Assembly (NCBI GenBank): GCA_030765605.1 | Contig: JAVCCG010000017.1 | Location: 35,582-99,581 of the forward strand | Reading direction: 5' to 3' | Length of the DNA stretch: 64,000 nucleotides | Source: Candidatus Alcyoniella australis | Lineage (GTDB): Bacteria; Lernaellota; Lernaellaia; JAVCCG01; Alcyoniellaceae | Shown: piece after piece, positions 817 through 63,919 of the stretch | Numbering within the stretch: position 1 is the stretch's first letter | Layout: each line of letters begins with the position of its first letter | Translations under genes and position numbers: made by a program | The notes under the pieces: generated by a model | Seen by the model: only the letters and a program-made list of their open reading frames with translations | What the model was told of the DNA's origin: nothing | Databases searched by the model: none

Positions 817-893
817 TGGCGCGCCCGGGAGGATTCGAACCCCCAACCTACGGATCCGTAGTCCGTTGCTCTATCCATTTGGGCTACAGGCGC
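817..893 (-). tRNA. tRNA-Arg (anticodon ACG), 77 nt with encoded CCA
   Basis: The reverse complement folds as a cloverleaf: acceptor GCGCCTG/CGGGCGC, anticodon loop CUACGGA, T-arm GGGGG-TTCGAAT-CCTCC. It is close to my recollection of E. coli tRNA-Arg(ACG). Confidence 0.85.
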
Positions 894-21259: not shown

Positions 21260-21274
21260 GCGGCTTGGCGCCGC

Positions 21275-21416
21275 GGCCAAACACGCGCAGTACGCTGGTC
21301 CTATTACAATGGGCCTCCCCGCGACGAAAGATTTTGGGGGTAGGCAAAGGTCGATAAATCGATCTTTGTGTGTAGGCTCGCCTGGGGGCACCTTTGAGGT
21401 GCCCGCAAAACTCGCG
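21275..21416 (+). repeat. palindrome-containing intergenic repeat element, copy A
   Basis: About 140 bp. Contains the TCGATaaATCGA palindrome and the GGGCACC-tttga-GGTGCCC hairpin. Near-identical to copy B, which lies 197 bp downstream. Confidence 0.8.
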
Positions 21417-21471
21417 AGCGGACCAGGGTCGTAGTGCAACGACCTTCTCCGCGACGGCAGCTTTGAGGTGC

Positions 21472-21613
21472 GGCCAAACACGCGCAGTACGCTGGTCCTA
21501 TTACAATGGGCCTCCCCGCGACGAAAGATTTTGGGGGTAGGCAAAGGTCGACAAATCGATCTTTGTGTGTAGGCTCGCCGGGGGGCACCTTGTGAGGTGC
21601 CCGCAAAACTTGC
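21472..21613 (+). repeat. palindrome-containing intergenic repeat element, copy B (tandem with A)
   Basis: Direct repeat of copy A with a few substitutions. It is flanked by CCCCGCGACG (5') and CGTCGCGG(G) (3') inverted motifs. Confidence 0.8.
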
Positions 21614-21792
21614 GCAGCACGACCCAACGCTCCGCCCCGCGTCGCGGCATGGGTCGACGCTAGACGACCAGGGAAATCTGCGAGCCATGCCCCGGCTCGA
21701 AGCCGCCCCCGCGAGCGTTTGCTCAAATATTGTAATTACAATATTTATCCCCCTTGTTCCTCGGCATATCAGGATAAAGCTGCGGATCAGCG

Positions 21793-21822
21793 TTGACAGC
21801 GCCGGGCATGCTGATTACAATC
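21793..21822 (+). promoter_or_regulatory. sigma70-like promoter (TTGACA-18 bp-TACAAT)
   Basis: Near-consensus hexamers upstream of the Lys-rich Rho_N-like gene. Confidence 0.5.
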
Positions 21823-21871
21823 TGCGCCCGGTCCTAGGGGCCGGTAAAGCTCTGAACCCACGGAGGCGCTT

Positions 21872-30107: not shown

Positions 30108-31505
30108 CTAAGCCTCAAATCTGAGCGCCGCAATCAGCGCCAGCGCCGCGGGCTCGAGCTCGTGCGGCTCTAGGGTGCGCGGATCGAGCAGCAGCCGTTC
30201 GCGGCTGATGCGCGCGATCAACGGTGGATCGCCACGGCGCAGCCTTGCGGCCAGCTCGTCCACCGAAACCGCGAGCGGCTCGATCGCCACAGCGCGGGTC
30301 GGCAGTTCGATCAACGGCAGCGCGCCGCCCCCGGCGCGACTGGTCTCGTCGACGATCTCGAGCTTGGCCGCGCCCTGCGGCAGCGACGCCAGTAGCTCGA
30401 CCAACCGTGCGGCGCGCTGTTGCAACTGCGTTGGATCGATGGTCAGGGCAGCCAGGGTCGGCACCTCGCGTATCGCGGTTTGCGGGTCGAGCGAGAGCCG
30501 CAGGGTCGCCTCCAGAGCGGCCAGGGTCATCTTGTCCAGGCGCAGAGCGCGCGCCAGCGGATGGCGCTTGCAGCGCGCGATCAGTTCGGACTTGCCCGCC
30601 AGGATCCCGGCCTGCGGTCCGCCGAGCAGCTTGTCGCCCGAGAACGTGACCAGGTCCACGCCCTCGTCGAGCACTTGGCGCGCGGTGGGCTCGTCGCCCA
30701 ATCCCCACTGCGCGAGGTCGATCAGGCAGCCCGAGCCCAGGTCCTCGACCAGCGGCAGGCCGTGTTCGCGGCCAAGCGCTGTCAGTTCGCCGCGCGAGAC
30801 CTCTTGGGTAAAGCCGACGATGCGGTAGTTGCTGGTGTGCGCGCGCAGCAGCAGCGCAGTGTCCGGGCCGATGGCCTGTCGGTAGTCGCTCAGGTGGGTC
30901 TTGTTGGTCGAACCGACCTCGACCATCTGGGCGCCAGAGGCGGCCATCACTTCTGGAATGCGGAACGATCCGCCGATCTCGACCAGCTGCCCGCGGCTGA
31001 CGATCACCTGTTTGTCGCCGGCCAACGCAGCCAGGGCCAAAAGCACCGCGCCGGCGTTGTTGTTCACGGCGAACGCGTCCTGCGCACCCGTGGCCTCGAT
31101 CAGCAGCTCGCGCACCAGATCGTGGCGCGAACCGCGCTCGCCGCGCTCCAGGTCGTACTCCAGGGTCGAGTAGCTCACTGCGCAACGCTGCGCAGCCCGG
31201 GCCGCCTCGGCGGCCAAACGGCTGCGGCCCAGGTTGGTGTGAAGCACGATTCCCGTGGCGTTGAGCACCGGCTCGAGGCGCGGCCGCAATCTACGTTGCA
31301 GCTCGCCGGACACCAGCTGGGGCCAGCTCGCGGACTGGGGCGGCCCTGCGCCCTGGATGATAGCCTGCCGTACACGCTCCACGGCTGAGCGTGCCGCGGC
31401 CCCCACGTGGGTCCGGCCGTGTTTCTCGATCAGGCCCTTGACCGGCTCGAGTTCGAGCAGCGCTCCCACCTGGGGCAGGCTGCGCAACGCATCTTTAGCA
31501 GTCAT
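30108..31505 (-). CDS. selA: L-seryl-tRNA(Sec) selenium transferase (selenocysteine synthase)
   Basis: 465 aa. Long colinear similarity to my recollection of E. coli SelA (VLHTNLGR, SYSTLEYDL, VNNNAGAVLL, VIVSRGQLVEIGGSFRIPEVM, FSGDKLLGGPQAGI, DKMTLAALEATLRL). Confidence 0.85.
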   Translation of the reverse strand: MTAKDALRSLPQVGALLELEPVKGLIEKHGRTHVGAAARSAVERVRQAIIQGAGPPQSASWPQLVSGELQRRLRPRLEPVLNATGIVLHTNLGRSRLAAEAARAAQRCAVSYSTLEYDLERGERGSRHDLVRELLIEATGAQDAFAVNNNAGAVLLALAALAGDKQVIVSRGQLVEIGGSFRIPEVMAASGAQMVEVGSTNKTHLSDYRQAIGPDTALLLRAHTSNYRIVGFTQEVSRGELTALGREHGLPLVEDLGSGCLIDLAQWGLGDEPTARQVLDEGVDLVTFSGDKLLGGPQAGILAGKSELIARCKRHPLARALRLDKMTLAALEATLRLSLDPQTAIREVPTLAALTIDPTQLQQRAARLVELLASLPQGAAKLEIVDETSRAGGGALPLIELPTRAVAIEPLAVSVDELAARLRRGDPPLIARISRERLLLDPRTLEPHELEPAALALIAALRFEA

Positions 31506-31575: not shown

Positions 31576-34815
<3,240 letters not shown>

Positions 34816-34990
34816 CCTGCAGTTCTCCCGCCGCCCGCTGACGCGGGCCGTCATGCTTACCAATAATCCGGGTTTGCAATGGAGCGCCGGACCTGTCCGG
34901 CCCAGATTTGCCAAAGCATAGGGAAAGGGGTCGCGCCAGTCAACGCCGGTTGGTTACTGTTTCGCCGTGGACTACTAGGCTAGTGGAAAA

Positions 34991-35058
34991 GATCGAGAAA
35001 TCGATCTTTATGTGTAGGCTCGCCGGGGGCACCTTTGAGGTGCCAGCAAAACTCGCGC
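34991..35058 (+). repeat. palindrome-containing intergenic repeat element, copy C (diverged core)
   Basis: GATCGAGAAATCGATC...GTGTAGGCTCGCC...GGCACCTTTGAGGTGCC...AAAACTCGCGC matches the core of copies A/B. Confidence 0.7.
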
Positions 35059-35344
35059 ATAAAGGTTGGTTTTTAACAACGACCAATCCCGCGTCGCGGA
35101 GAGCATCGTTGGACAATGATTATGGTCGCTCGCGTGCCTTGCTGCAGCTCATAGCTGCCTCGCGGGGTGTTCGAAATTTATTTTGAGGTGGGCTGCGTGC
35201 TTTTCCACGCGTATGTCGAAGAAAACGTGCGTGGAGAACCTTGTTCGGCTGACATGCTGACTGTTGAGGGTCGCGGATACTGTCAAAGGCGGCATGCACT
35301 CCGACATTAATAAATTTCGTTCCAATGCCCCGCGAGCGCTTACT

Positions 35345-35368
35345 AATATTGTTTAAACAAACAATATT
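35345..35368. repeat. AT-only inverted repeat AATATTGTTT-aaac-AAACAATATT
   Basis: 10-bp perfect arms immediately downstream of the DegT-like gene stop. Confidence 0.3.
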
Positions 35369-35374
35369 CCCCCG

Positions 35375-46983: not shown

Positions 46984-47517
46984 TTAGCCGGCCCGGAGGG
47001 TCCGTTCCTGCTCGGACATCTCGCTGCGAATGCGCATGATGTCCTGCGGGTCGTGCAAGCTGATCTTGTGAAGTCGGGCGCGCAGGCCCGCGGTGTCGTA
47101 CTCGTAGCGCCGACGGTCCACGGTGTGCACCAGGCGGATCCGGCCGTAGGGGTTGGCCGCGGTCAGGCACATCATCATCCGCGGCACGTCGCCGATCGGC
47201 GGCAGGGCGTCGCCCTGGGTGTTGAGCATGGCGCTGACTTTGGTGCCGCCGGTCTTGATGTGGGTGATGGCGCAACGGCCGTTGCACTGCTTGGCCAGGG
47301 CGTGCAACCGCTGCAAGCCCCGGGAGCGCTCGAAGTAATCCTGGTCAAAGTCAAACGACCTGGGCGCGTCCGCCTCGAATCGACCGTCGTCAATAACCGT
47401 GATCTCCACCCGTGGTTTGGACCCGTTGGTCTCGCGGATCGAGATCTCGATACTATCGGCCTGATGCGACAGCATGTTCATGCCCACGTCGAGGATTAAC
47501 TGCGAGATTTCGCTCAT
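46984..47517 (-). CDS. GHKL/HATPase_c-like ATP-binding protein (anti-sigma-kinase-like), standalone
   Basis: N-box-like NMLSH, G1-like VIDDGRF and G2-like SRGLQRL, in the order seen in RsbW/SpoIIAB-like proteins. Confidence 0.35.
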   Translation of the reverse strand: MSEISQLILDVGMNMLSHQADSIEISIRETNGSKPRVEITVIDDGRFEADAPRSFDFDQDYFERSRGLQRLHALAKQCNGRCAITHIKTGGTKVSAMLNTQGDALPPIGDVPRMMMCLTAANPYGRIRLVHTVDRRRYEYDTAGLRARLHKISLHDPQDIMRIRSEMSEQERTLRAG

Positions 47518-48157
47518 TGCGCTCTCCGGGTTTTACTAATCAGTTGCTACCCGGTTCCAGGGGCGCGGTTGAGCATCGATCTGATGGGGGGTAATGGCGG
47601 TGGTCGCCTCCCGGCAATACTCCACGGTAAGAGGATGATATGGGCTATCATTGGGAGCCTGAAAATGAAGCAGGTTGTAGCATGATGTGACGGTTTTGCT
47701 GTTTGCCGGTCGGTTAAGGAGGGAAGCGACCACCAACCAAGAAAACTGATAAGCCGGGCTTGCGCCCTTGGGTACCGGGAGTGGCAGGCTTGCCATCAGT
47801 TGTCTTTGCATTATTGTTTCCTACGCATGACTACCGGCGATGGGCCATGGCGGCGACTCATGGTGCAAATCAATGTTGTGAATGTCGCCGCCACGAACCG
47901 TGGTGAAAACAATACAAGTGTCGTGCCAAAACCAGGAGTTTTCGATAGACGTGGTAAATGGCAGCGATTACATTATTGTATAGTTATAGACTTATAGTGC
48001 GCCCCGGGCCCAAGTGTAATGATAATGTGACACTGAAAGGGCTTCATCGTGTTGAAATGCTACACAAATAGCTAACAAAACGTATATAAACAAGTACTTA
48101 ATGATTTGAGTACGATGTTTCGGGGCAGAGACAAAATGACCGAAAATCGACCAATTA
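47518..48157. other. 640-bp AT-rich intergenic island (local GC far below the window average) containing a 9-bp-stem hairpin
   Basis: Long A/T runs (for example tatagttatagacttatag and aaacgtatataaacaagtactta) and the hairpin GGCGGCGAC-26 nt loop-GTCGCCGCC at 47848-47891. No convincing ORF. Confidence 0.7.
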
Positions 48158-50500
48158 TTACTGCAAAATCTTGAAATTTTGCTCCAGGGAGCGGCTGTTG
48201 CCCGCGCGATCGGTAACTTGAAGTTTGATTGTGTGCTCGCCGGGCTCCAGATTTTGGTCCGGGATGTATTTGATCCAGCCTCGCGGACCGTTGCTCTCGC
48301 CCACCACGCGTTGGCCATCGAGGGTCAGGACCGTGTTGCCCGCCGGAATGCCCGAGCCCGCGTCGCTGACCACGAAGCTCAGAGCCGGTCGCGCATTGCG
48401 CAATTTGGCGTTGGCGCGTGGCCCGGTCCACTTGATGTACGGCCGTTGCACGTCGCGCATCAGCGCGAAAGTGCCCAGTTGCGGCGCCCGTCCGCTGATG
48501 GTGCGCGAGGCTGGGTCGTGGTTAAAACCCATCTGCCACCAGCGGCCGGAGTCGTAGTAGTAGACTCCCACGCCGTTTGGGGTCTGGCCCTCGGGCAGCT
48601 TGATGCTCACCCCGATTTTGCCGCCCAGGGGCACGCCCTTGCGCTCGATGCAATAGGCCGCTCCCACCTGTTGCAGGCCCTGTTTGGGCTCGGGGACAGT
48701 CGTCTGTTCCAGCGTGGTGTAGAACGGACGCTCCAGCGTGCCCCGGCCGAGGCGCACGGCGAACCGGCCGTCGTTCGATTTAAGCCTGGCACCCCCGCGC
48801 GCGAGCTGCAGCGGCGCTGCAATGTTTGCGCGGACCTCGCGGCCTTGGCGGTCGCGTCCGCTGGCGCTGATCGACAGCGGGGTCGAGACGATGTTGTTGT
48901 TGTCCAGGATCGCCATGTAACGGCCGTTGCCCTGCCAGACGCCGGGCAGCAGCACCTCGTCCTCGCCCCCTCCGCTGACCTTTACCGTGGGCTCGCGCAG
49001 CAGCGGCTCTGCGGTGTTGATCACGATCTCGGTGTACAGCTCGCGCAGCCGGTAGCTGATCGAGATCTGCGGCAGTGCGGCAGCCTGTTCGATGGTGGGT
49101 CGAGCGTAGAACAGCCGCCATGGGGAATGCAGCCCGTGCCCGTCCTGGGTCCGCGCTTTGATCAGCAGGCCCTCAAGCGCTCGGCCCATGGGCGGCTCGA
49201 GCTCCCAACGTCCGGCGTCAAGCGCGTGCGTTGTGGCCGCATGCCACGAGCGTCCGTGGTCGGCGGACCAGGCGCTCTCCAAGAGCAGGTTGGGCTCGCC
49301 GTCAGGGTCGCTGCCTCCCAGCAGCACGCGCGTTTGTTCAGTCTCGATGCGGAACAGCTCGGGCGCGCGGTTGGCGATCAAGGTCAGCTCGACCACCGTG
49401 CTGTTGTCCGAGACGTCCGTGGCGATCAACCGCAACGTGTGCTCGCCCTGGGGCAGATCGCGGATTACGCCATCGCCATCCAGGTCAAAGGCCGTTTGCT
49501 CGACCCACTTGCGGAACAGCCGGTGATAGCCGTGGCCGTGCCGGAAGTACAGCTCGAGGTCGTAGGCGTAGTTGATCACCTGCTTGTGCTCGTAGCAGGA
49601 GCGCTGGAACTGCGAGAGGAAAATCGTCTTGCCGTCGAGCTCGGCGCGCAGTTGGTAGGGCGCCAGGATGCGGTCCGAGCCGTCGATGCGGTCGATAACC
49701 CGCAGCCCGAATCCAACCTCGCCGCTGATCGAGATCGGCCTGCCCGAGCTGTAGTGACCGTCGCGTTTGACCAGCGGCAGCACCGGCTTGGAGCGTCCGC
49801 CGTTGACCGTGGCGTCGTGGCTCAGTGGATCGATGAAGATTTCCAGCGGCTGGGGCGGGATGCTGTCGTCGCGGAAGAAGCCGTGGGTCAACGGGTTGAG
49901 CGGGCAGTTGTCCGGGCCGCGCAGCTCGAAGTGCAAATGCGGCGAGCTGGTGCCGGTGTTGCCCGCGTAGCCGATCACCTGGCCCGCCGTGACCTTGATC
50001 TCGCCGGGCTTTAGGAACAGGTCGGCCTCGTACGAGCCGATCTGCCGGTGATAGGCGCGCATTCGAGTCCAGATTTCGTCGATCATTCCGTCGAGGTGGG
50101 CGTAGACCACGGTGTTGCCGTCCTCGAGCCGGATGTACAGCGCCTTGCCGTAACCCACGGCGCTGGTGCGCGCGCGGCAGACCCAGCCGTCGGCCACAGC
50201 CACCACCGGCGTGCCGATCACGCCGTAGGTCGACAGGTCGAGCCCCGCGTGAGGGTGGCCGATGCGGTATTCGCCGAAGTTGCCCGAGATGCGAATCGGC
50301 GTCAGCAGCGGCCAAAGATAACCGCGGTCCGAGACAAAGCTTTGGGGCTGCATCTGCGGGACCTGTTGGGCCTGGGCCAGGGTGGCGGGGACCGGATCGG
50401 CGGCCACGGCCGGAACAGCGGTCAGCAGTACGGCCAGCGTCAGCGCGGCGATGGTTCTGAGCATGTCCAGGATCCGAAATTGCGGCGCGACCGGCCTCAA
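48158..50500 (-). CDS. M23 family metallopeptidase (LytM domain) with C-terminal repeat domains
   Basis: HPHAGLD and GNTGTSSPHLHFE motifs. The start is uncertain: TTG at 50500 or ATG at 50465. Confidence 0.75.
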   Translation of the reverse strand: MRPVAPQFRILDMLRTIAALTLAVLLTAVPAVAADPVPATLAQAQQVPQMQPQSFVSDRGYLWPLLTPIRISGNFGEYRIGHPHAGLDLSTYGVIGTPVVAVADGWVCRARTSAVGYGKALYIRLEDGNTVVYAHLDGMIDEIWTRMRAYHRQIGSYEADLFLKPGEIKVTAGQVIGYAGNTGTSSPHLHFELRGPDNCPLNPLTHGFFRDDSIPPQPLEIFIDPLSHDATVNGGRSKPVLPLVKRDGHYSSGRPISISGEVGFGLRVIDRIDGSDRILAPYQLRAELDGKTIFLSQFQRSCYEHKQVINYAYDLELYFRHGHGYHRLFRKWVEQTAFDLDGDGVIRDLPQGEHTLRLIATDVSDNSTVVELTLIANRAPELFRIETEQTRVLLGGSDPDGEPNLLLESAWSADHGRSWHAATTHALDAGRWELEPPMGRALEGLLIKARTQDGHGLHSPWRLFYARPTIEQAAALPQISISYRLRELYTEIVINTAEPLLREPTVKVSGGGEDEVLLPGVWQGNGRYMAILDNNNIVSTPLSISASGRDRQGREVRANIAAPLQLARGGARLKSNDGRFAVRLGRGTLERPFYTTLEQTTVPEPKQGLQQVGAAYCIERKGVPLGGKIGVSIKLPEGQTPNGVGVYYYDSGRWWQMGFNHDPASRTISGRAPQLGTFALMRDVQRPYIKWTGPRANAKLRNARPALSFVVSDAGSGIPAGNTVLTLDGQRVVGESNGPRGWIKYIPDQNLEPGEHTIKLQVTDRAGNSRSLEQNFKILQ

Positions 50501-50505
50501 GTCGA

Positions 50506-52053
50506 CTAGTTACACGGTTGGTTGCAGTAGGGCAGCTGGTTCAGCGGTCTGAAGGAGGAGACCGGATCGGACTCGTCGTAGACCTGGGCGTCGTAGGACA
50601 GCTCGAGCGAGGCGTAGAGTTTGCGCGTTACGCGTTTGACGATCAGCACCTGGCCGATTTGCAGCTTGTCCGAGGGCTTGATCTTGTTCCAGAGGCACAG
50701 GTCGCTCATCCGGCAGTTGAAACGGCGCGAGATCGTCCACAGCGAGTCGCCGGACTCGACATTATGCACGGCCTGTTCCATCACCAGCTCGCTGTTGTCG
50801 GCGACCATCTGCTCGATGCTCGGTTCGCGTTCGGGCAGCGGCGGCACTTCGCTGGTGTAGACCACCAGCGATTGTCCGGGGTAGAGCCTCTTGGAGCGAC
50901 TCAGCCCGTTCCAGGCACGGATGTTGGACGAGGTGACCGCGGGGTCGAGAAAACGCGAGGAGATCGTGCTCAGCGAGTCGCCTTCGGCCACCACGTAAAT
51001 CAGCGAGGGCCCGTCGCGCTTAACCCTGCGCGACACGCTCGAGCTGGCCACTGCCCTGCGCGAGGGCGAGTAGCTCGCGGTCTGGCGCGGGCGCGCGCTT
51101 CCGGGCTCGTAGTCGACCTGGGAGCCGCTGCCGATCATCCGCCCTTGGCGTGCCAGCTGGAAATCGGTCTGGGTCGGCGTAAATCCGTCGGCCGCAGCCA
51201 CGGCATTCGGGCAATAGAAGCGGACGTGCAGGTGGTTGTGGTGTCCGCGCGAGTGACGGATGATCCCCTGGCGTACGCGGCGTCCGCGGGGATATTGAAA
51301 GACCGTCTCGAGGAAGGCGGCCGATTTTTTCAGGTTGTCGCGGCAGTAGGCGTAGAAGATCGATTGCAGCGAGTAGTCCAGGAAGATGTACTGGACTTTG
51401 CCGTTCTCGATCATCGCCTCGATCAACGTCCAGGTTTTGGGTACGTCGAGGTTCCCCTCGTTCATTGTGACGAAATGGCCGCGCGCGCTTCCGTCGCTGA
51501 AGTAGAGGCCGATGTCGATGTCGCGGCCGTTCTCGTGGGAGACGTGGGGCCGCAACGATCCGCCGCCCGGAGCGCTCAAATCGCCGATGTAAATGTCGTG
51601 GGTCCCGGGGTAGGTGACCTGCACGGTCTCAATGGCGTAGAGCACTGCCGAGATCAGTTCCGGCGTGGAGAAGTCGTGGTGCGAGCGGCGCACAAAGTAG
51701 CCCGGGCCGTCGGGGAACTGCACGCCGTTGATCAGCAGGCCGTTTGACGGAGCGCCCCAGGACATGCATACGCCCTCGGGCATCGGCACGCGCTGGCTGA
51801 CGTCGATCGCTTTAGGTGGCTGTTCCACGGTCGGGGGCAGCTCTTTATTTATCGATAATTCGTCGAGGGAGTCCTGGTCGGACGCGGCTTGGGCGGAGTT
51901 CTGATCCTGGTCCTCGGCCTGTTCACCCTGCTCGACAGTCTGCTCGGAGGTCGATTCGTCGGATTCGCCTTGATCGGACGCGACCTCCTCGGCCCACACC
52001 GCGGGCGCGAGCAGTAGCAAGCTTAGTAGGGCGATCAGTAGCAGTCGTCGCAA
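50506..52053 (-). CDS. MepA-like (M74) murein endopeptidase with two C-terminal LysM domains
   Basis: LRPHVSHENGRDIDIGLYF and HHNHLHVRF resemble the MepA metal-binding motifs. Two LysM-like segments (VAEGDSLSTIS, VESGDSLWTIS). The probable start is TTG 52053 with SD GGCGGGAG; the ORF extends to 52137. Confidence 0.5.
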   Translation of the reverse strand: MRRLLLIALLSLLLLAPAVWAEEVASDQGESDESTSEQTVEQGEQAEDQDQNSAQAASDQDSLDELSINKELPPTVEQPPKAIDVSQRVPMPEGVCMSWGAPSNGLLINGVQFPDGPGYFVRRSHHDFSTPELISAVLYAIETVQVTYPGTHDIYIGDLSAPGGGSLRPHVSHENGRDIDIGLYFSDGSARGHFVTMNEGNLDVPKTWTLIEAMIENGKVQYIFLDYSLQSIFYAYCRDNLKKSAAFLETVFQYPRGRRVRQGIIRHSRGHHNHLHVRFYCPNAVAAADGFTPTQTDFQLARQGRMIGSGSQVDYEPGSARPRQTASYSPSRRAVASSSVSRRVKRDGPSLIYVVAEGDSLSTISSRFLDPAVTSSNIRAWNGLSRSKRLYPGQSLVVYTSEVPPLPEREPSIEQMVADNSELVMEQAVHNVESGDSLWTISRRFNCRMSDLCLWNKIKPSDKLQIGQVLIVKRVTRKLYASLELSYDAQVYDESDPVSSFRPLNQLPYCNQPCN

Positions 52054-52147
52054 ACGTATACTCCCGCCAACCTGCCGTAGGGCAGCATCGGCAACATATA
52101 ATCGTGTGATTATCTCAGAAACGAGATGCAAAACCAAGCCCTAACGC

Positions 52148-53971
52148 TTACTTATCCAGTAGTTCTTTCACCCGTTGGCGATCGCGGCCGTAGATGTCGG
52201 TGAGGAAGATCGCCCGGCCGTCATCGTGCAGCGCCACGGTGACGTACTCGATATGGATCGGGATTTTGGTGCGCAGCTCCAGCCGCCGGTTGTTGCCCGA
52301 GCGCAACATCCGTTCGGTGTTGGCCGCCTCGGGGTGGCCGTCCTGCTCGATCAGCCATTGGGCCATCTCCAGGGCATTTTCCAGGCGCATACAGCCGTGG
52401 GAGTAGGCGCGATAGCTGCGGTTGAACAGGTATTTACTCGGAGTATCGTGCAGGTAAACGTCGTGGTGGTTGGGAAAGAGGATCTTGACCTTGCCCAAGG
52501 CATTACCCGCGCCGGGCTTCTGAGTGATGTACAGCCGTCCGCTGCTTGATTCGCGCAGCTTGTAACCGCGGACTTTGTAGTAATCGTCGATGTCCTCGGC
52601 CAGTTCGGCCTTGGCCACGATCTCCTCGACGATCCGTTCGGGCACGTTCCAGAAGGGGTTGTACTCGACGAACTCGATCTCGTCGACGAACTCCGGGGTG
52701 TTGTTGTCCTTCTTGCGGTTGCCGACCACGATGCGATGCTTGCGGAGCAGCTCGCCCTCGCGCACCACGTGGACCTCGTACTGCGGGATGTTGACCCGGA
52801 AGTAGAAGGGCTTCCAGCGGCATGGCGTTTCGCGCAGCTTTTGCGTTGCCAGGGCGATCTGCGCCGCGCGCATATCGATCGGCACGTTGAGCGCCTTGAA
52901 GGTCGATCGCGCCGCCACACCGTCGGGCGTGAGCTGATGGTGCTCCTGGTAGCTCTTGACCGCATCTTGCGTGGCCAGGTCGAAAAAGCCGCTGACCGGA
53001 CCTTGGTAGAATTCTTCCAGTCCCAGCCGCCGTTGCAGTTGTTCGACCAGCGGGCCGCGACTGTTGCGCCGAAGCTTGGTGAAACGCGAGCGCGGCTCGA
53101 TCGGCTCGATCACGTCCCGAGCGTCGAGTTTAAGATAGAACTCCATCGCGCGTTGCAATCCGGCATAGTCGAGCATTCGCGGATCGAGTGCAGCCAGCGC
53201 AGCGTCGAGATCATTGCGCGCCACAGCCAAGACCGAGCCCAGGCGCGAGCGCGGCAGGCCCATCTGCAGCGCCATGCGCTCCAGGTCGCGGGCCAGCTCC
53301 ACGTCCAGCCGGGCCGCGCGGCCCTCCAGCGCCCGAAGTTCGCGGTCCAGCCCTGAGACCTGTTCCACTGGCTTGGAATAGGCGCTGCCCGCATCAGCTT
53401 GCTGCAGTCGGTCCAGCAGCCTTGCGGCCAGCTGCTCGTGCGACAGGTCGCGAAGGTTGCCCAGCTCCAGGCACAGTCGCAGCTCCTGCCACAGCGTGAT
53501 CTCGAGGCTGAAGCGATCGATCAGATCGCGGGCGTCGCTTTGGATCGCGGCGATCCGCTCGCGGTTGTAATCCACTCCATAGGACGTGGGGTCGATGCCA
53601 TCGAAGCGCAGCCGCTCGATTCTCTTGAGCAGCGTATTAGCCGCGGGCAGCGGTTGATATCCGTCAAAGAACACCGGCCGTAGCCTGCCGTTGAAATACA
53701 GCATCCGCAGCGACAGCGCGATGCGGTCCTGGGGCAGTGCGGCGGAGATCTCGTCGGCCTGAAGCTCGAGCAGTTCGGGATCAACGGCCAGTTGCTCCGC
53801 CAGGGCCGGGCCGCAACGCGGCGCGAAGTCGCGCAGGGCGAGCTGATTGGGTTTGAGGTAGAGTAGGTATCCGGCGACCAGAGCGCAGATCGACAATGTC
53901 GCGGCCAGCAAAATATATGCCGGGCCGCGACCTCGTGTTTTTATGCTCTGCGCCTGTTCGTCCTCGGGCAT
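52148..53971 (-). CDS. L,D-transpeptidase (YcbB/LdtD-like) with peptidoglycan-binding domain
   Basis: YkuD catalytic motif HDTPSKYLFNRSYRAYSHGCMRL and a PG_binding_1-like segment. Confidence 0.75.
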   Translation of the reverse strand: MPEDEQAQSIKTRGRGPAYILLAATLSICALVAGYLLYLKPNQLALRDFAPRCGPALAEQLAVDPELLELQADEISAALPQDRIALSLRMLYFNGRLRPVFFDGYQPLPAANTLLKRIERLRFDGIDPTSYGVDYNRERIAAIQSDARDLIDRFSLEITLWQELRLCLELGNLRDLSHEQLAARLLDRLQQADAGSAYSKPVEQVSGLDRELRALEGRAARLDVELARDLERMALQMGLPRSRLGSVLAVARNDLDAALAALDPRMLDYAGLQRAMEFYLKLDARDVIEPIEPRSRFTKLRRNSRGPLVEQLQRRLGLEEFYQGPVSGFFDLATQDAVKSYQEHHQLTPDGVAARSTFKALNVPIDMRAAQIALATQKLRETPCRWKPFYFRVNIPQYEVHVVREGELLRKHRIVVGNRKKDNNTPEFVDEIEFVEYNPFWNVPERIVEEIVAKAELAEDIDDYYKVRGYKLRESSSGRLYITQKPGAGNALGKVKILFPNHHDVYLHDTPSKYLFNRSYRAYSHGCMRLENALEMAQWLIEQDGHPEAANTERMLRSGNNRRLELRTKIPIHIEYVTVALHDDGRAIFLTDIYGRDRQRVKELLDK

Positions 53972-62388: not shown

Positions 62389-63675
62389 CTATTTCTTATT
62401 CAGTGCGCGCTTGCTGACCCTGATTGCGCAGAACTCCCCGCACATAGTGCACACGTCGTCCTCGGTCGGCGGCGTGTTGGCGCGCAGTTCCTCGGCGCGT
62501 TTTGGGTCGATGGCGGACTCGATCTGTCCCGGCCAGTCCTGGGCCACGCGACGCTCGCTCATCTTGCGGTCGAGCGCCCAGGAGTCGGCGCGGCCGCGAG
62601 CTAGGTCAGCGGCATGCGCCGCGATCTTGGAGGCGATCACTCCCTGCCGCACCTGCTCGACGTCGGGCAGCCCGAGGTGCTCGCTGGGCGTGACGTAGCA
62701 CAGGAAGTCCGCGCCGTGCCAGGCGGCCAACGCCCCACCGATGGCGCAGGCGATGTGGTCGTAGCCCGGAGCGATGTCGGTCACCAGCGGACCGAGCACG
62801 TAGAACGGCGCGCCGTCGCAGATCCGCTTCTGCAGCTCGACGTTGCTCTGCACCTGATCCAGCGGCACGTGCCCCGGCCCCTCGACCATCACCTGCACGC
62901 CCGCGGCCCGCGCGCGTTTGGTCAGTTCGCCGAGTACGAACAGCTCGGCGAGCTGGGCCGGATCCGTGGCGTCGACGATCGATCCGGGACGGAATCCGTC
63001 GCCCAAGCTGAGCACAACCTCGTGCTCGGCCGCGATCTGCAGCAATTCGTCATAGCGCTCGTAGAGCGGGTTTTCCGCCTTGTTGTGCATCATCCACTCG
63101 ACGAGGAACGAGCCGCCGCGGCTGACAATGCCCATCAGTCGCGGGTTGTCCAACAGTACCTTGAGCGAGTTGCGGTTGATGCCGCAGTGCACGGTGATGA
63201 AGTCGACTCCACCCTCGCATTGGCGGCGGATCACCTCGAACAGCAGGTCCGGGTCGAGGTCGGCCAGGCCCACGCCGCAGGCGATCGATTCGATGACCGC
63301 CTGGTAGATCGGCACGGTGCCCAGCGGGACCGGGCATTGCGCGAGGATCTCGCGGCGCACCGCGTCGATATCGCCGCCGGTGGAGAGGTCCATCACCGTG
63401 TCGGCCCCGGCGTCGAGCGCCGCCCGCAGCTTGTCCAGCTCGAATTGCAGGTCCGCGCGGTCCTTGCTGGTGCCGATGTTGGCGTTGACCTTGATCCGCG
63501 CGCCGCCGCCCACAGCCAGCGGCTCGATCTGCGGCCGGTGCAGGTTGCGCGTGATCACCGCCTTGCCCGCGGCGACCTGCTCGGCCAGGCTTTCGGGCTC
63601 GAGCCCCTCGCTGTGCGCGGCCTGAACCACGGATTGGGGAAGTGTGCCGGACTTGAGTTGTTCGAGTAGAGTCAT
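62389..63675 (-). CDS. thiC: phosphomethylpyrimidine synthase
   Basis: 428 aa. VMDLSTGGDI and the C-terminal radical-SAM-like Cys cluster region typical of ThiC. Confidence 0.8.
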   Translation of the reverse strand: MTLLEQLKSGTLPQSVVQAAHSEGLEPESLAEQVAAGKAVITRNLHRPQIEPLAVGGGARIKVNANIGTSKDRADLQFELDKLRAALDAGADTVMDLSTGGDIDAVRREILAQCPVPLGTVPIYQAVIESIACGVGLADLDPDLLFEVIRRQCEGGVDFITVHCGINRNSLKVLLDNPRLMGIVSRGGSFLVEWMMHNKAENPLYERYDELLQIAAEHEVVLSLGDGFRPGSIVDATDPAQLAELFVLGELTKRARAAGVQVMVEGPGHVPLDQVQSNVELQKRICDGAPFYVLGPLVTDIAPGYDHIACAIGGALAAWHGADFLCYVTPSEHLGLPDVEQVRQGVIASKIAAHAADLARGRADSWALDRKMSERRVAQDWPGQIESAIDPKRAEELRANTPPTEDDVCTMCGEFCAIRVSKRALNKK

Positions 63676-63919
63676 CTCTTCCCTCCAGGGCGGAGCCGTG
63701 TTTCCCGCCTGGGCGGCGGTGTCTCAATCCACTGAGACACCCCCAGCGGCGGCCCCTTTTTAAGCCCGGCCTCGCCTGCAAGTCAAGCTGCACGGCCCAG
63801 GTCGCGGACCGCGAACCGGCGACGCGGGCGGCATGACGGCAGCCTTGCTTTTACAGGGTCGGTTCACTAGATTCATCTCGAACCGCGTACCGTCGGGTTC
63901 AATCACCGGGGAGGAATGG

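What the first reader, a model, noticed from the sequence alone, without database searches (positions are those of the whole stretch)
47518..48157. 640-bp AT-rich island between two minus-strand genes in a high-GC genome
The local composition is strikingly different from the rest of the window, with runs such as tatagttatagacttatag and aaacgtatataaacaagtacttaatgatttgag. There is no convincing ORF. The island contains a strong hairpin (9-bp GC stem, 26-nt loop, 47848-47891). It lies directly upstream of a standalone GHKL/anti-sigma-kinase-like gene. Possibilities are a large regulatory region bound by an H-NS/Lsr2-like xenogeneic silencer, an unannotated ncRNA, or a remnant of foreign DNA.
Basis: seen in the sequence. 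Interest (0 to 1): 0.55.

Follow-up and report, generated by a model that had tools for sequence, protein, structure and literature searches.

The report
Conserved structured leader RNA, sigma-54 promoter
The "AT-rich island" holds the terminator of one operon, a promoter region and a roughly 385-base folded RNA leader of the next gene; the leader is conserved in near-identical blocks in one other, very different organism and matches no known RNA family, so it is a candidate new regulatory RNA known from only two sequences.

Summary
47518-48157 is the intergenic gap between an M23 peptidase gene and a 177-aa GHKL-fold gene, and it contains the lowest-GC stretch of the window. It is not one uniform island. 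The right ~230 bp (39% GC) carries a terminator and promoter-upstream DNA. The left ~385 bp (54-58% GC) is a conserved element.

The only close homologue of the GHKL gene (45% aa identity; 1.36-kb metagenome contig, 44% GC) has the same upstream layout:
- a shared TTTTGGCACGACA-N-TTG box, which fits the sigma-54 -24/-12 consensus;
- blocks of 10-19 identical bases;
- helices P2 and P3, which carry three compensatory and three G-U-type changes.

The core is 54% GC in both genomes. Sites that would be synonymous are 42% diverged, against 82% in the adjacent gene, so selection acts on the nucleotides. Rfam gives no hit.

Best reading: a new structured 5' leader RNA of the GHKL mRNA, on the minus strand, driven by a sigma-54-type promoter.

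Caveats: there are only two sequences, no expression platform was found, and an 85/86-codon frame is open in both (p about 0.014), so translation is not excluded. Nothing supports an H-NS-type silencer or a foreign-DNA remnant.

The parts
48158..50500 (-). Upstream gene: secreted M23 peptidase with a C-terminal Ig-like domain. It is the last gene of a peptidoglycan-remodelling operon (with the M74/LysM gene 50506-52137 and the L,D-transpeptidase gene 52148-53971).
48127..48153 (-). Intrinsic-terminator-like hairpin (UGGUCGA-UUU-UCGGUCA) followed by UUUUGUCUCU, 4 nt after the M23 stop codon.
   Evidence: It is a consensus match only. Such matches are not more numerous in this region than in shuffles (2 found, 0.9 expected); the position right after a stop codon is what makes it plausible.
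47930..48126 (.). The truly AT-rich part (about 39% GC, minimum 32-35% per 100 nt). It is promoter-upstream DNA and a candidate enhancer or bending region for the sigma-54-type promoter. It contains weak inverted repeats: AGTGT-N12-ACACT (48034-48013) and GTACT-N10-AGTAC (48113-48094).
   Evidence: sequence read. That activators bind here is inference only.
47961..47990 (-). Partly conserved block at a fixed distance (33-62 nt) upstream of the TGGCAC box.
   Evidence: ungapped identity to L002, anchored on the promoter, is 43% over -100..-1, against 27.4 +/- 4.5 (maximum 39) at shifted offsets. The peak is 15 of 20 identical.
47914..47928 (-). Sigma-54-type promoter box TGGCACGACACTTGT (-24 GG, -12 TTGT; one mismatch to TGGCACG-N4-TTGC). 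The preceding TTTT is also conserved.
   Evidence: alignments. L002 has TTTTGGCACGACAATTGC at 174-192, a perfect consensus match. In both sequences the 13-nt identical run lies at the 5' edge of the conserved element.
47518..47902 (-). Inferred 5' leader RNA of the GHKL mRNA, about 385 nt. The start near 47902 is predicted from the promoter geometry, not mapped.
   Evidence: No terminator-like site was found between the structured core and the start codon, and no sigma-70-like site on the minus strand.
47848..47893 (-). The stem sequence is identical in L002. The loop shares ACAAC-N-U-N-GAUU.
   Evidence: I3.
47739..47806 (-). P2: arms 47806-47793 and 47752-47739 around a 40-nt loop of identical length in both species.
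   Evidence: I2; helix 1: 2 pairs changed on both sides, 2 G-C to G-U changes, 3 pairs unpaired in one of the two sequences.
47774..47783 (-). Invariant CACUCCCGGU in the P2 loop. Bases 47781-47773 are complementary (9 bp in both species) to UGCCGGGAG at 47616-47608. This gives a possible alternative pairing or pseudoknot that competes with P3 and P4.
   Evidence: Read from alignment A6. Forcing this pairing costs about 8-9 kcal/mol in both sequences. Its function is inferred.
47596..47738 (-). P3 domain. A 17-bp helix (47738-47721 with 47612-47596, one bulge) closes a roughly 108-nt multi-stem region. That region includes P4 (47707-47703 with 47617-47613), P5 (47670-47665 with 47625-47620) and a conserved 13-nt asymmetric loop.
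   Evidence: I1; helices 2-4 (100%, 90% and 100% of cells paired; 1 compensatory U-A to C-G change, 1 U-A to U-G change). Fold z-score is -4.15 on the sense strand and -2.83 on the antisense strand.
47696..47714 (-). Longest invariant run, ACCGACCGGCAAACAGCAA (19 nt). It lies within a 46-nt stretch that differs from L002 at 3 positions.
47536..47811 (-). Open frame inside the leader: 91 codons from the AUG at 47811, or 86 from the conserved AUG at 47796. The same frame is open in L002 (85 codons from the AUG at 367, ending at 624). AGGA lies 7 nt upstream of the 47811 AUG.
   Evidence: Openness in both has p about 0.014. There is no codon-level coding signature. AlphaFold pLDDT is 55.9.
47524..47527 (-). 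Shine-Dalgarno GGAG of the GHKL gene, 6 nt before the ATG at 47517.
   Evidence: Sequence read; positions located.
46984..47517 (-). Downstream gene: 177-aa GHKL-fold protein (histidine-kinase CA-like N-terminal half). Its G1 and G2 ATP-lid motifs are degenerate. Its only close relative is P0002 on L002.

Best explanation
The gap is a composite.

1. The upstream peptidoglycan operon ends at a terminator-like hairpin right after the M23 stop codon.

2. About 200 bp of AT-rich DNA then precede a sigma-54-type promoter (TGGCACGACACTTGT, 47928-47914, minus strand). This DNA is presumably where an activator binds and the DNA bends.

3. Transcription from about 47902 gives an mRNA with a leader of about 385 nt before the GHKL-fold gene (ATG at 47517).

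4. About 300 nt of that leader (47895-47594) form a conserved structured RNA:
- hairpin P1;
- stem P2, with an invariant CACUCCCGGU in its loop;
- a 17-bp helix P3 that closes a multi-stem domain with invariant loops and junctions.

I take this to be a cis-acting sensory or regulatory leader that binds a ligand or a protein and sets translation or stability of the downstream mRNA. One possible switch is competition between P3/P4 and the conserved 9-bp pairing of CUCCCGGU(A/G) with UGCCGGGAG.

Shown: the conservation, the nucleotide-level constraint, the strand, helices P1-P3, and the absence from Rfam.

Inferred: use of the sigma-54 promoter, the transcript ends, cis-regulation, and the switch.
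For: Conservation.
- P0002 is the only close homologue of the GHKL protein among about 15 billion proteins. It lies on contig L002.
- The upstream DNA of L002 aligns with the window's minus strand in two ungapped stretches of 114 and 75 nt. These contain identical runs of 10-19 nt.

Constraint on nucleotides rather than on a protein.
- Core identity is 66%, against 52% in the adjacent gene.
- Sites that would be synonymous are 42% diverged, against 82% (saturated) in the GHKL gene.
- 74% of identical residues use identical codons, against 36% in the GHKL gene.
- Substitutions show no excess at the third codon position.
- GC3 at variable codons is 0.43 in a genome whose genes have GC3 of 0.72-0.91.
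- Core GC is 54.3% here (window 64%) and 54.5% in L002 (contig 44%). Composition independent of genome GC is typical of structured RNA.

Structure.
- In P2-P5, 95.2% of cells are paired, against 32-61% when partners are slid. Three pairs changed on both sides and three by G-U-type changes.
- P1 has an identical stem in both sequences.
- The P3 domain has fold z-scores of -4.15 (window) and -2.18 (L002) on the sense strand, against -2.83 and -0.83 on the antisense strand.
- Several G-U pairs would be A-C mismatches on the other strand.

Promoter.
- The shared TTTTGGCACGACA-N-TTG lies at the 5' edge of the conserved region and is a perfect consensus match in L002.
- The scan found no sigma-70-like site on the minus strand, and no terminator-like site between P3 and the ATG.

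Not a known family: no credible Rfam match in either sequence at E up to 10.
Against: Only two sequences exist, so covariation cannot reach significance: 76 of 500 shuffles reach the observed values. Most helix positions are invariant and therefore uninformative.

No further copy was found in metagenome, genome, viral, plasmid or phage collections.

The window's -12 element is TTGT, not TTGC. A one-mismatch match to the sigma-54 pattern is not rare by itself: 1 was found where 2.5 are expected by chance in the window. No rpoN gene and no sigma-54 activator was found among the 36 window genes scanned.

The promoter-to-P1 distance differs: about 10 nt here and about 68 nt in L002.

No conserved expression platform was found. 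The alternative pairing is 8-9 kcal/mol less stable, and it does not change predicted pairing of the Shine-Dalgarno sequence.

An 85/86-codon frame is open in both sequences (p about 0.014), with an AUG inside a conserved block and an AGGA upstream. This hints at translation.

There is no transcript evidence at all.
Confidence: 0.5

Rival explanations
1. The conserved region is translated. Either it encodes a small protein of about 86 aa co-transcribed with the GHKL gene, or it holds a long regulatory upstream ORF whose translation through the structured leader matters while the peptide sequence does not. The RNA structure and the translation may coexist.
For: The same frame is open in both species for 85/86 codons. 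It starts at an AUG inside the invariant CUGAUGG block and ends 18 nt (window) or 51 nt (L002) before the GHKL start codon.

When the variable positions are permuted, this frame stays open in both in only 1.4% of trials.

The single indel within the aligned core is 6 nt.

AGGAAACAA precedes an in-frame AUG by 7 nt (window) or 12 nt (L002).

dN/dS in this frame (0.62) is slightly lower than in the two control frames (0.77 and 1.3).
Against: There is no protein-level signature.
- pS is 0.42, against 0.82 in the neighbouring gene.
- The synonymous fraction is no higher than in a control frame.
- Substitutions are spread evenly over the codon positions.
- GC3 is 0.58 overall and 0.43 at variable codons, against 0.72-0.91 in the window's genes.
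- Residues outside the nucleotide-conserved blocks are not similar (mean BLOSUM62 -0.5).
- No Pfam family matches, and no such protein is called in the collection.
- The AlphaFold single-sequence model has low confidence, pLDDT 55.9; this is weak evidence.

The compensatory and G-U changes are not explained by coding.
Confidence: 0.22
2. The element is a free-standing or processed non-coding RNA that acts in trans or as a partner of the GHKL-fold protein encoded next to it (an RNA-protein pair), not as a cis-regulator of that gene.
For: The RNA and this protein subfamily occur together in both known cases and nowhere else found.

The protein has degenerate ATP-lid motifs, unlike family members that sit in hydrogenase/DRTGG/PHP operons without such a leader.

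No expression platform was found.

The size and multi-helix build resemble large non-coding RNAs that lie next to partner genes (own knowledge).
Against: No terminator-like site lies between P3 and the start codon, and no separate promoter-like site for the gene was found.

The orientation is always co-directional with the gene, 78-116 nt upstream of its start. This is the usual layout of a leader.

Nothing indicates that the protein binds RNA.
Confidence: 0.15
3. The conservation reflects DNA-level function only: a large promoter or operator region bound by regulators or nucleoid proteins such as an H-NS/Lsr2-type silencer, with no RNA function.
For: The 47930-48157 part is the most AT-rich DNA of the window.

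It carries a partly conserved block at a fixed distance from the promoter box.

The region folds better than shuffles on both strands, so folding alone does not name a strand for the whole gap.
Against: The strongly conserved part lies downstream of the promoter box and is 54% GC, not AT-rich.

Substitutions preserve base pairing, and G-U pairs favour one strand.

About 300 bp of near-invariant blocks is far more than operator sites need.

The adjacent gene is compositionally native (GC3 0.88), so nothing here looks like a target of xenogeneic silencing.
Confidence: 0.06
4. The gap is a decaying remnant of foreign or mobile DNA or of a pseudogene.
For: Its composition differs from the genome. 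It holds short ORFs without a coding signature.
Against: Neutral remnants would not keep runs of 10-19 identical bases between organisms whose neighbouring proteins are only 45% identical.

No repeats, no mobile-element genes and no second copy were found in the window.

No match was found in phage or plasmid collections.
Confidence: 0.02

Closest known systems
Orphan structured leader RNAs and riboswitch candidates found in long intergenic regions of unusual GC content (GC-IGR approach: PMC6429828, PMC8632094, PMC11109978; also the 224 candidate motifs of PMC5737381)
   Same: It lies in a long intergenic region upstream of, and co-directional with, a gene. It has blocks of invariant sequence separated by variable stretches, helices with compensatory changes, and a composition set by the RNA rather than by the genome. 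In L002 it is a 54.5% GC island in a 44% GC contig, which is the signal those searches use.
   Different: It matches none of the 4227 Rfam 15 families. Only two representatives are known, far fewer than is normally accepted for a motif. At about 300 nt the core is larger than most riboswitch aptamers. No expression platform or ligand clue was found. The associated gene is an uncharacterised degenerate GHKL-fold protein.
Large bacterial non-coding RNAs with complex folds that sit next to partner genes (OLE, GOLLD, ROOL, HEARO, raiA motif; recalled from own knowledge, all in Rfam)
   Same: The size class is similar (over 200-300 nt) and there are multiple helices. The link to one neighbouring gene is conserved, and the distribution is narrow.
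   Different: It shows no sequence or structure similarity to any of them by cmscan. Here the RNA runs directly into the downstream gene with no terminator found, which fits a leader better.
Sigma-54-dependent small RNAs such as GlmY/GlmZ and Qrr (own knowledge)
   Same: A structured RNA begins just downstream of a -24/-12 promoter box.
   Different: Those are trans-acting RNAs of roughly 100-200 nt with their own terminators and known partners. None matches here. Here the sigma-54 promoter is inferred from sequence only.
AT-rich islands silenced by H-NS, Lsr2 or MvaT
   Same: The local AT content is well above the genome average and lies next to a promoter.
   Different: The AT-rich stretch is only about 230 bp, is non-coding, and is flanked by compositionally native genes. 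The conserved part is not AT-rich. No silencer gene or binding data were examined.

Membership tests
Any curated RNA family (Rfam 15) | Covariance-model score at or above the family's gathering threshold | tested here: not met
   The gathering-threshold scan of the whole window finds only tRNA at 820-893. Permissive scans of 47300-48400 and of L002 give only chance-level hits (E of 1 or more, 15-20 bits against thresholds of 37-61).
Sigma-54 (RpoN) dependent promoter | -24 TGGCAC and -12 TTGC elements with the exact 4-nt spacing of TGGCACG-N4-TTGC | tested here: met
   The window has TGGCACGACACTTGT (one mismatch, at the C of the -12 element). L002 has TGGCACGACAATTGC, a perfect match. The box is conserved together with 4 preceding T residues. 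A one-mismatch match alone is not significant in the window (1 found, 2.5 expected).
Sigma-54 (RpoN) dependent promoter | The genome encodes RpoN and an AAA+ enhancer-binding activator | not testable with these tools
   Neither was found among the 36 window genes scanned with Pfam. The rest of the genome is not available here.
Riboswitch or cis-regulatory leader | A conserved structured domain supported by covariation | tested here: inconclusive
   95.2% of cells are paired, with 3 compensatory and 3 one-sided changes. With two sequences, 76 of 500 shuffles do as well.
Riboswitch or cis-regulatory leader | An expression platform (terminator/antiterminator or Shine-Dalgarno sequestration) coupled to the sensor domain | tested here: not met
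   No terminator-like site lies between P3 and the ATG. Forcing the conserved alternative pairing does not change predicted Shine-Dalgarno pairing in either sequence.
Riboswitch or cis-regulatory leader | Binding of a specific ligand or protein | not testable with these tools
   This needs in-line probing or binding assays. The downstream gene gives no metabolic clue.
Protein-coding gene (small ORF 47811-47536) | An open frame conserved between homologues | tested here: met
   The frame is open for 85/86 codons in both sequences. The permutation p is 0.014.
Protein-coding gene (small ORF 47811-47536) | Codon-level signature: excess third-position and synonymous change, and genome-typical GC3 | tested here: not met
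   Differences by codon position are 41/33/40, against 86/62/107 in the GHKL gene. pS is 0.42 against 0.82. GC3 is 0.58 (0.43 at variable codons) against 0.72-0.91 in the window's genes.
Rho-independent terminator (end of the M23 operon) | A stem-loop followed by a U-rich tract just after a stop codon | tested here: met
   The stem has 7 pairs (3 G-C) and a 3-nt loop, followed by UUUUGUCUCU, at 48153-48127. It is a consensus match only.
GHKL ATPase / histidine-kinase CA domain (downstream gene) | The Bergerat-fold motifs: N box, G1 box (DxGxG) and G2 box (GxxGxG) | tested here: inconclusive
   The Pfam HATPase_c score is 24.9 bits, just under the 26.4 cut-off. A family profile matches kinase CA domains in the PDB at E = 6e-15. 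The Asn of the N box is kept. G1 reads DDGRFE here and DNSITG in P0002. G2 reads GLQRL and GLLRL in place of GLGL. The fold is likely retained; ATP binding is doubtful.
Xenogeneic-silencer target (H-NS/Lsr2 type) | An AT-rich, horizontally acquired segment carrying foreign genes | tested here: not met
   The AT-rich part is about 230 bp of non-coding DNA. The adjacent genes have native GC3 of 0.85-0.88. No phage or plasmid similarity was found. Silencer binding itself is not testable here.

The most novel reading that the evidence does not exclude
The element is the founding pair of a new class of large (about 300 nt) complex-folded bacterial RNAs. The class is functionally tied to a catalytically degenerate GHKL-fold protein. 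The RNA would be either a sensor that controls that protein's synthesis or its RNA partner in a ribonucleoprotein. It has been kept nearly invariant in its loops and junctions across lineages whose genomes differ by about 20 points of GC.
Probability: 0.2. Interest if true: 0.7.

Novelty: new member of a known kind. Interest (0 to 1): 0.5.

Why it matters
Large, complex-folded bacterial RNAs outside the known families are rare. Each newly described one has tended to reveal new biochemistry, such as ligand sensing, ribonucleoprotein machines or ribozymes.

This candidate comes from Candidatus Lernaellota, a phylum known only from metagenomes. It is attached to an uncharacterised, probably ATP-dead branch of the GHKL family, whose ordinary members sit in [FeFe]-hydrogenase regulatory operons. 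If confirmed, it would give a handle on what that protein branch does and how it is controlled.

It also shows a practical point for genome scans. The same RNA looks like part of an AT-rich island in a 64% GC genome and like a GC-rich island in a 44% GC contig.

The value is limited for now because only two copies are known and no transcript data exist.

Tried and rejected
Searches for more copies of the RNA all failed.
- The exact-pattern scan of JGI metagenome contigs (GACCGGCAAACAGCAANACC) gave 13 hits. All lie in sequence that lacks the flanking conserved blocks and looks protein-coding by eye.
- GTDB species genomes (CCGACCGGCAAACAGCAA) gave 59 hits, none with the flanking blocks.
- IMG/VR (GGTCGCTTCCCTCC) gave chance hits only.
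- blastn against plasmids and phages found nothing.
- nhmmer with the two-sequence profile over the window and all 200 fetched loci found only the two known copies.

Other routes to relatives.
- The M23 peptidase found no relatives in GTDB genomes by protein pattern.
- I queried the protein database with a concatenated six-frame translation of the RNA, hoping to catch spurious ORFs called over homologous RNAs.
- More distant members of the GHKL family (P0004, P0005, P0009, P0014, P0126) either sit inside operons or are on contigs too short to show. None has this leader.

Readings considered and rejected or downgraded.
- Ordinary protein-coding gene: codon tests.
- tRNA or tmRNA.
- Anti-phage defence component: PADLOC gives no hit.
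- Repeat or mobile element.
- IHF site between enhancer and promoter: matches merely follow AT-richness and are not at the expected position.
- A Shine-Dalgarno-sequestering switch built from the CCUCC, GGGAGG and CUCCCGG blocks: constrained folding does not support it.

The AlphaFold model of the small ORF is uninformative (pLDDT 55.9, single sequence).
Full report
**Source and setting.** The 177-aa protein encoded at 46984-47517 is identical to a protein annotated in a MAG of Candidatus Alcyoniella australis. This organism belongs to the phylum Candidatus Lernaellota and was described from Ace Lake, Antarctica (PMC9324843). The window is 64.3% GC.

**Checking the observation.**
- The gap 47518-48157 lies between the ATG of the 177-aa gene and the stop codon of a 780-aa gene. 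Both are on the minus strand.
- The 780-aa protein is an M23 peptidase with an Ig-like C-terminal domain. It is the last gene of a peptidoglycan-remodelling operon that also holds an M74/LysM protein and an L,D-transpeptidase.
- The 177-aa protein gives a sub-threshold HATPase_c hit (24.9 bits against 26.4).
- The gap is 48.8% GC. It contains the lowest 100-nt GC value of the window (0.32) and lies in the longest run below 50%.
- The gap is not uniform: 47930-48157 is 39% GC, and 47518-47895 is 54-58%.
- Other intergenic regions also dip to 0.40-0.43. Several of the other large gaps from my rough gene call contain likely genes that it missed.
- The hairpin is real: 47848-47857 pairs with 47884-47893, 10/10 complementary.
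- Both quoted AT-rich runs are present.
- Rfam finds nothing in the gap at the gathering threshold or at E up to 10.

**The key result: one homologous locus.**
- An exhaustive HMMER search of 1.84 billion representative proteins shows that the 177-aa protein belongs to a family of roughly 180-aa GHKL-fold proteins. It has only one close relative, P0002 (45% identity, E = 1e-38). Everything else is at most 34% identical. Word-indexed searches agree.
- P0002 lies on a 1359-bp metagenome contig, L002, of 44% GC.
- Read side by side, the DNA upstream of P0002 and the window's minus strand share a series of identical blocks in the same order:
  - TTTTGGCACGACA-N-TTG
- CGTGGCGGCGA ...
  - CTGATGG
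  - CACTCCCGGT
  - ATCAGTT
  - GGTCGCTTCCCTCC
  - ACCGACCGGCAAACAGCAA
  - ACCGTCACA
  - CTTCAT
  - TAGCCC
  - GTGGAGT
  - TGCCGGGAGGCG
- From CTGATGG to the end of the last helix, the two sequences align in ungapped stretches of 114 and 75 nt, separated by a single 6-nt length difference.

**The constraint is on nucleotides, not on a protein.**

| Measure | Conserved core | Adjacent GHKL gene |
|---|---|---|
| Nucleotide identity | 66% | 52% |
| Identical residues that use the identical codon (only open sense frame) | 74% | 36% |
| Differences by codon position | 41/33/40 | 86/62/107 |
| Nei-Gojobori pS | 0.42 | 0.82 (saturated) |

- In the two control frames pS is 0.28 and 0.36.
- GC3 of the frame is 0.58 overall and 0.43 at variable codons, in a genome whose genes have GC3 of 0.72-0.91.
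- Core GC is 54.3% here and 54.5% in L002, although the backgrounds are 64% and 44%.
- A sequence whose composition ignores the genome and whose would-be silent sites are frozen is what a structured RNA looks like.

**Structure and strand.**
Its stem is identical in the two species, and part of the loop is shared.
- P2 (47806-47793 with 47752-47739) encloses a 40-nt loop of equal length in both, with the invariant CACUCCCGGU.
- P3 (47738-47721 with 47612-47596) is a 17-bp helix with a one-base bulge at the same place in both. It closes a domain of about 108 nt containing P4, P5 and a conserved 13-nt asymmetric loop.
- Counted on a MAFFT alignment, 95.2% of cells in P2-P5 form standard pairs, against 32-61% when partners are slid by 1-3 columns. 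Three pairs changed on both sides, and three changed by G-C or A-U to G-U.
- With two sequences the shuffle control cannot be significant (76 of 500). I count this as supportive, not proof.
- Several invariant or variable G-U pairs would be A-C mismatches on the plus strand.
- The P3 domain folds better than shuffles on the minus strand (z -4.15 here, -2.18 in L002) than on the plus strand (-2.83, -0.83).
- The RNA therefore reads in the direction of the GHKL gene.

**Promoter and flanks.**
- At the 5' edge of the conserved region both sequences carry TTTTGGCACGACA. TTGT follows in the window and TTGC in L002, with the exact spacing of the sigma-54 consensus TGGCACG-N4-TTGC.
- The window match has one mismatch and would not be significant alone. 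The cross-species identity at the homologous position is what makes the case.
- A simple scan finds no sigma-70-like site on the minus strand. It also finds no terminator-like site between P3 and the start codon.
- Upstream of the box, ungapped identity anchored on the promoter is 43% over 100 nt, against 27 +/- 4.5 at shifted offsets. The peak is at 47961-47990.
- This is where an activator or a bending protein would be expected, but that is inference.
- A terminator-like hairpin with a U-tract lies directly after the M23 stop codon (48153-48127).
- No rpoN gene and no sigma-54 activator is among the 36 window genes scanned.

**How it may work.**
- The leader runs uninterrupted into a gene with a normal GGAG ribosome-binding site. 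The simplest reading is therefore a cis-acting leader of about 385 nt.
- I looked for a switch. The invariant loop sequence CUCCCGGU(A/G) can form 9 bp with UGCCGGGAG in both species. This pairing would compete with P4 and the base of P3.
- Block GCUUCCCUCC is anti-Shine-Dalgarno-like, and GGGAGG is Shine-Dalgarno-like.
- Constrained folding makes the alternative 8-9 kcal/mol less stable. It does not alter predicted pairing of the real Shine-Dalgarno sequence.
- The switch is therefore a hypothesis, not a finding. A ligand-bound or protein-bound sensor that alters translation or stability is my preferred mechanism, at modest confidence.

**The open frame.**
- One sense frame is open in both species for 85/86 codons. 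It starts at the AUG inside CUGAUGG and is preceded by AGGAAACAA.
- With the identical positions held fixed and the variable ones permuted, this happens in 1.4% of trials.
- Together with the codon tests above, this suggests that if the frame is translated, it is the act of translation or mere openness that matters, not the peptide.
- I keep this as the main rival (0.22). AlphaFold on the single sequence is uninformative.

**The downstream protein.**
- A profile of 32 family members matches histidine-kinase catalytic (CA) domains in the PDB (E = 6e-15).
- More distant family members lie in [FeFe]-hydrogenase / DRTGG / PHP operons.
- The two-member subfamily with the leader has degenerate G1 and G2 ATP-lid motifs. 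It is probably not an active kinase or ATPase.
- It has no PADLOC hit.

**Limits.** All attempts to find a third copy failed. The two known copies come from ENA assemblies that the pattern-scan collections do not cover. Everything about transcription is inferred from sequence.

**Verdict.**
- It belongs to no known RNA family, so I file it as a new member of a known kind (an orphan structured leader or non-coding RNA motif).
- Interest is 0.5. It is a credible and fairly large new RNA candidate in a barely studied phylum, held back by having only two representatives and no expression data.

Noticed in passing
window 34915-35374: A 460-nt gap with no convincing ORF (52% GC) lies directly upstream of the carbamoyl-phosphate synthase large-subunit gene (31576-34914, minus). 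It has no Rfam hit at the gathering threshold. It is the second clear long non-coding gap of the window and could hold another leader.
   Followed up: no
window 21260-21871: A 612-nt stretch (60% GC) in which no ORF shows the genome's GC3 bias. It lies between a phosphodiesterase-family gene and a 103-aa ORF.
   Followed up: no
window 62389-63763: The thiC gene (minus strand, 62389-63675) has only 88 nt upstream before a divergent ORF, and no TPP riboswitch is detected by Rfam. thiC is very often preceded by one.
   Followed up: no
window 46984-47517 and P0002 (L002 676-1215): The two-member GHKL subfamily has lost the conserved DxGxG (G1) and GLGL (G2) ATP-lid motifs and the DPFFTT motif that the rest of the roughly 180-aa family keeps. 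It is probably a pseudo-ATPase.
   Followed up: partly
L201 130-600: About four tandem copies of a roughly 100-nt unit (GTGGCGCATCCGGCAGGTCC...AAGGCAGGAAGACACAAACCGTTG...GTTAGCGAATGAACACC) lie upstream of a distant GHKL family member. No gene is called in the 1270 nt upstream of that member, and there is no Rfam hit. They are unrelated to the window's element.
   Followed up: no
P0003 (search result): A 1467-aa protein matches residues 20-54 of the 177-aa protein in ten separate stretches. It thus contains a repeated segment that resembles part of the GHKL N-terminal region.
   Followed up: no
window 48158-53971: Three consecutive minus-strand genes form a cell-wall remodelling operon: an L,D-transpeptidase with a PG-binding domain, an M74 endopeptidase with LysM domains, and an M23 peptidase with an Ig-like domain.
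   Followed up: partly
window 817-893 and 30108-31505: tRNA-Arg(ACG) on the minus strand lies inside a 697-nt gap. Separately, a selA (selenocysteine synthase) gene indicates that the organism uses selenocysteine.
   Followed up: no
window 47537-48176: Seven of the window's eleven one-mismatch matches to the IHF consensus WATCAANNNNTTR fall in or at the edge of the gap. This probably just reflects AT-richness.
   Followed up: partly
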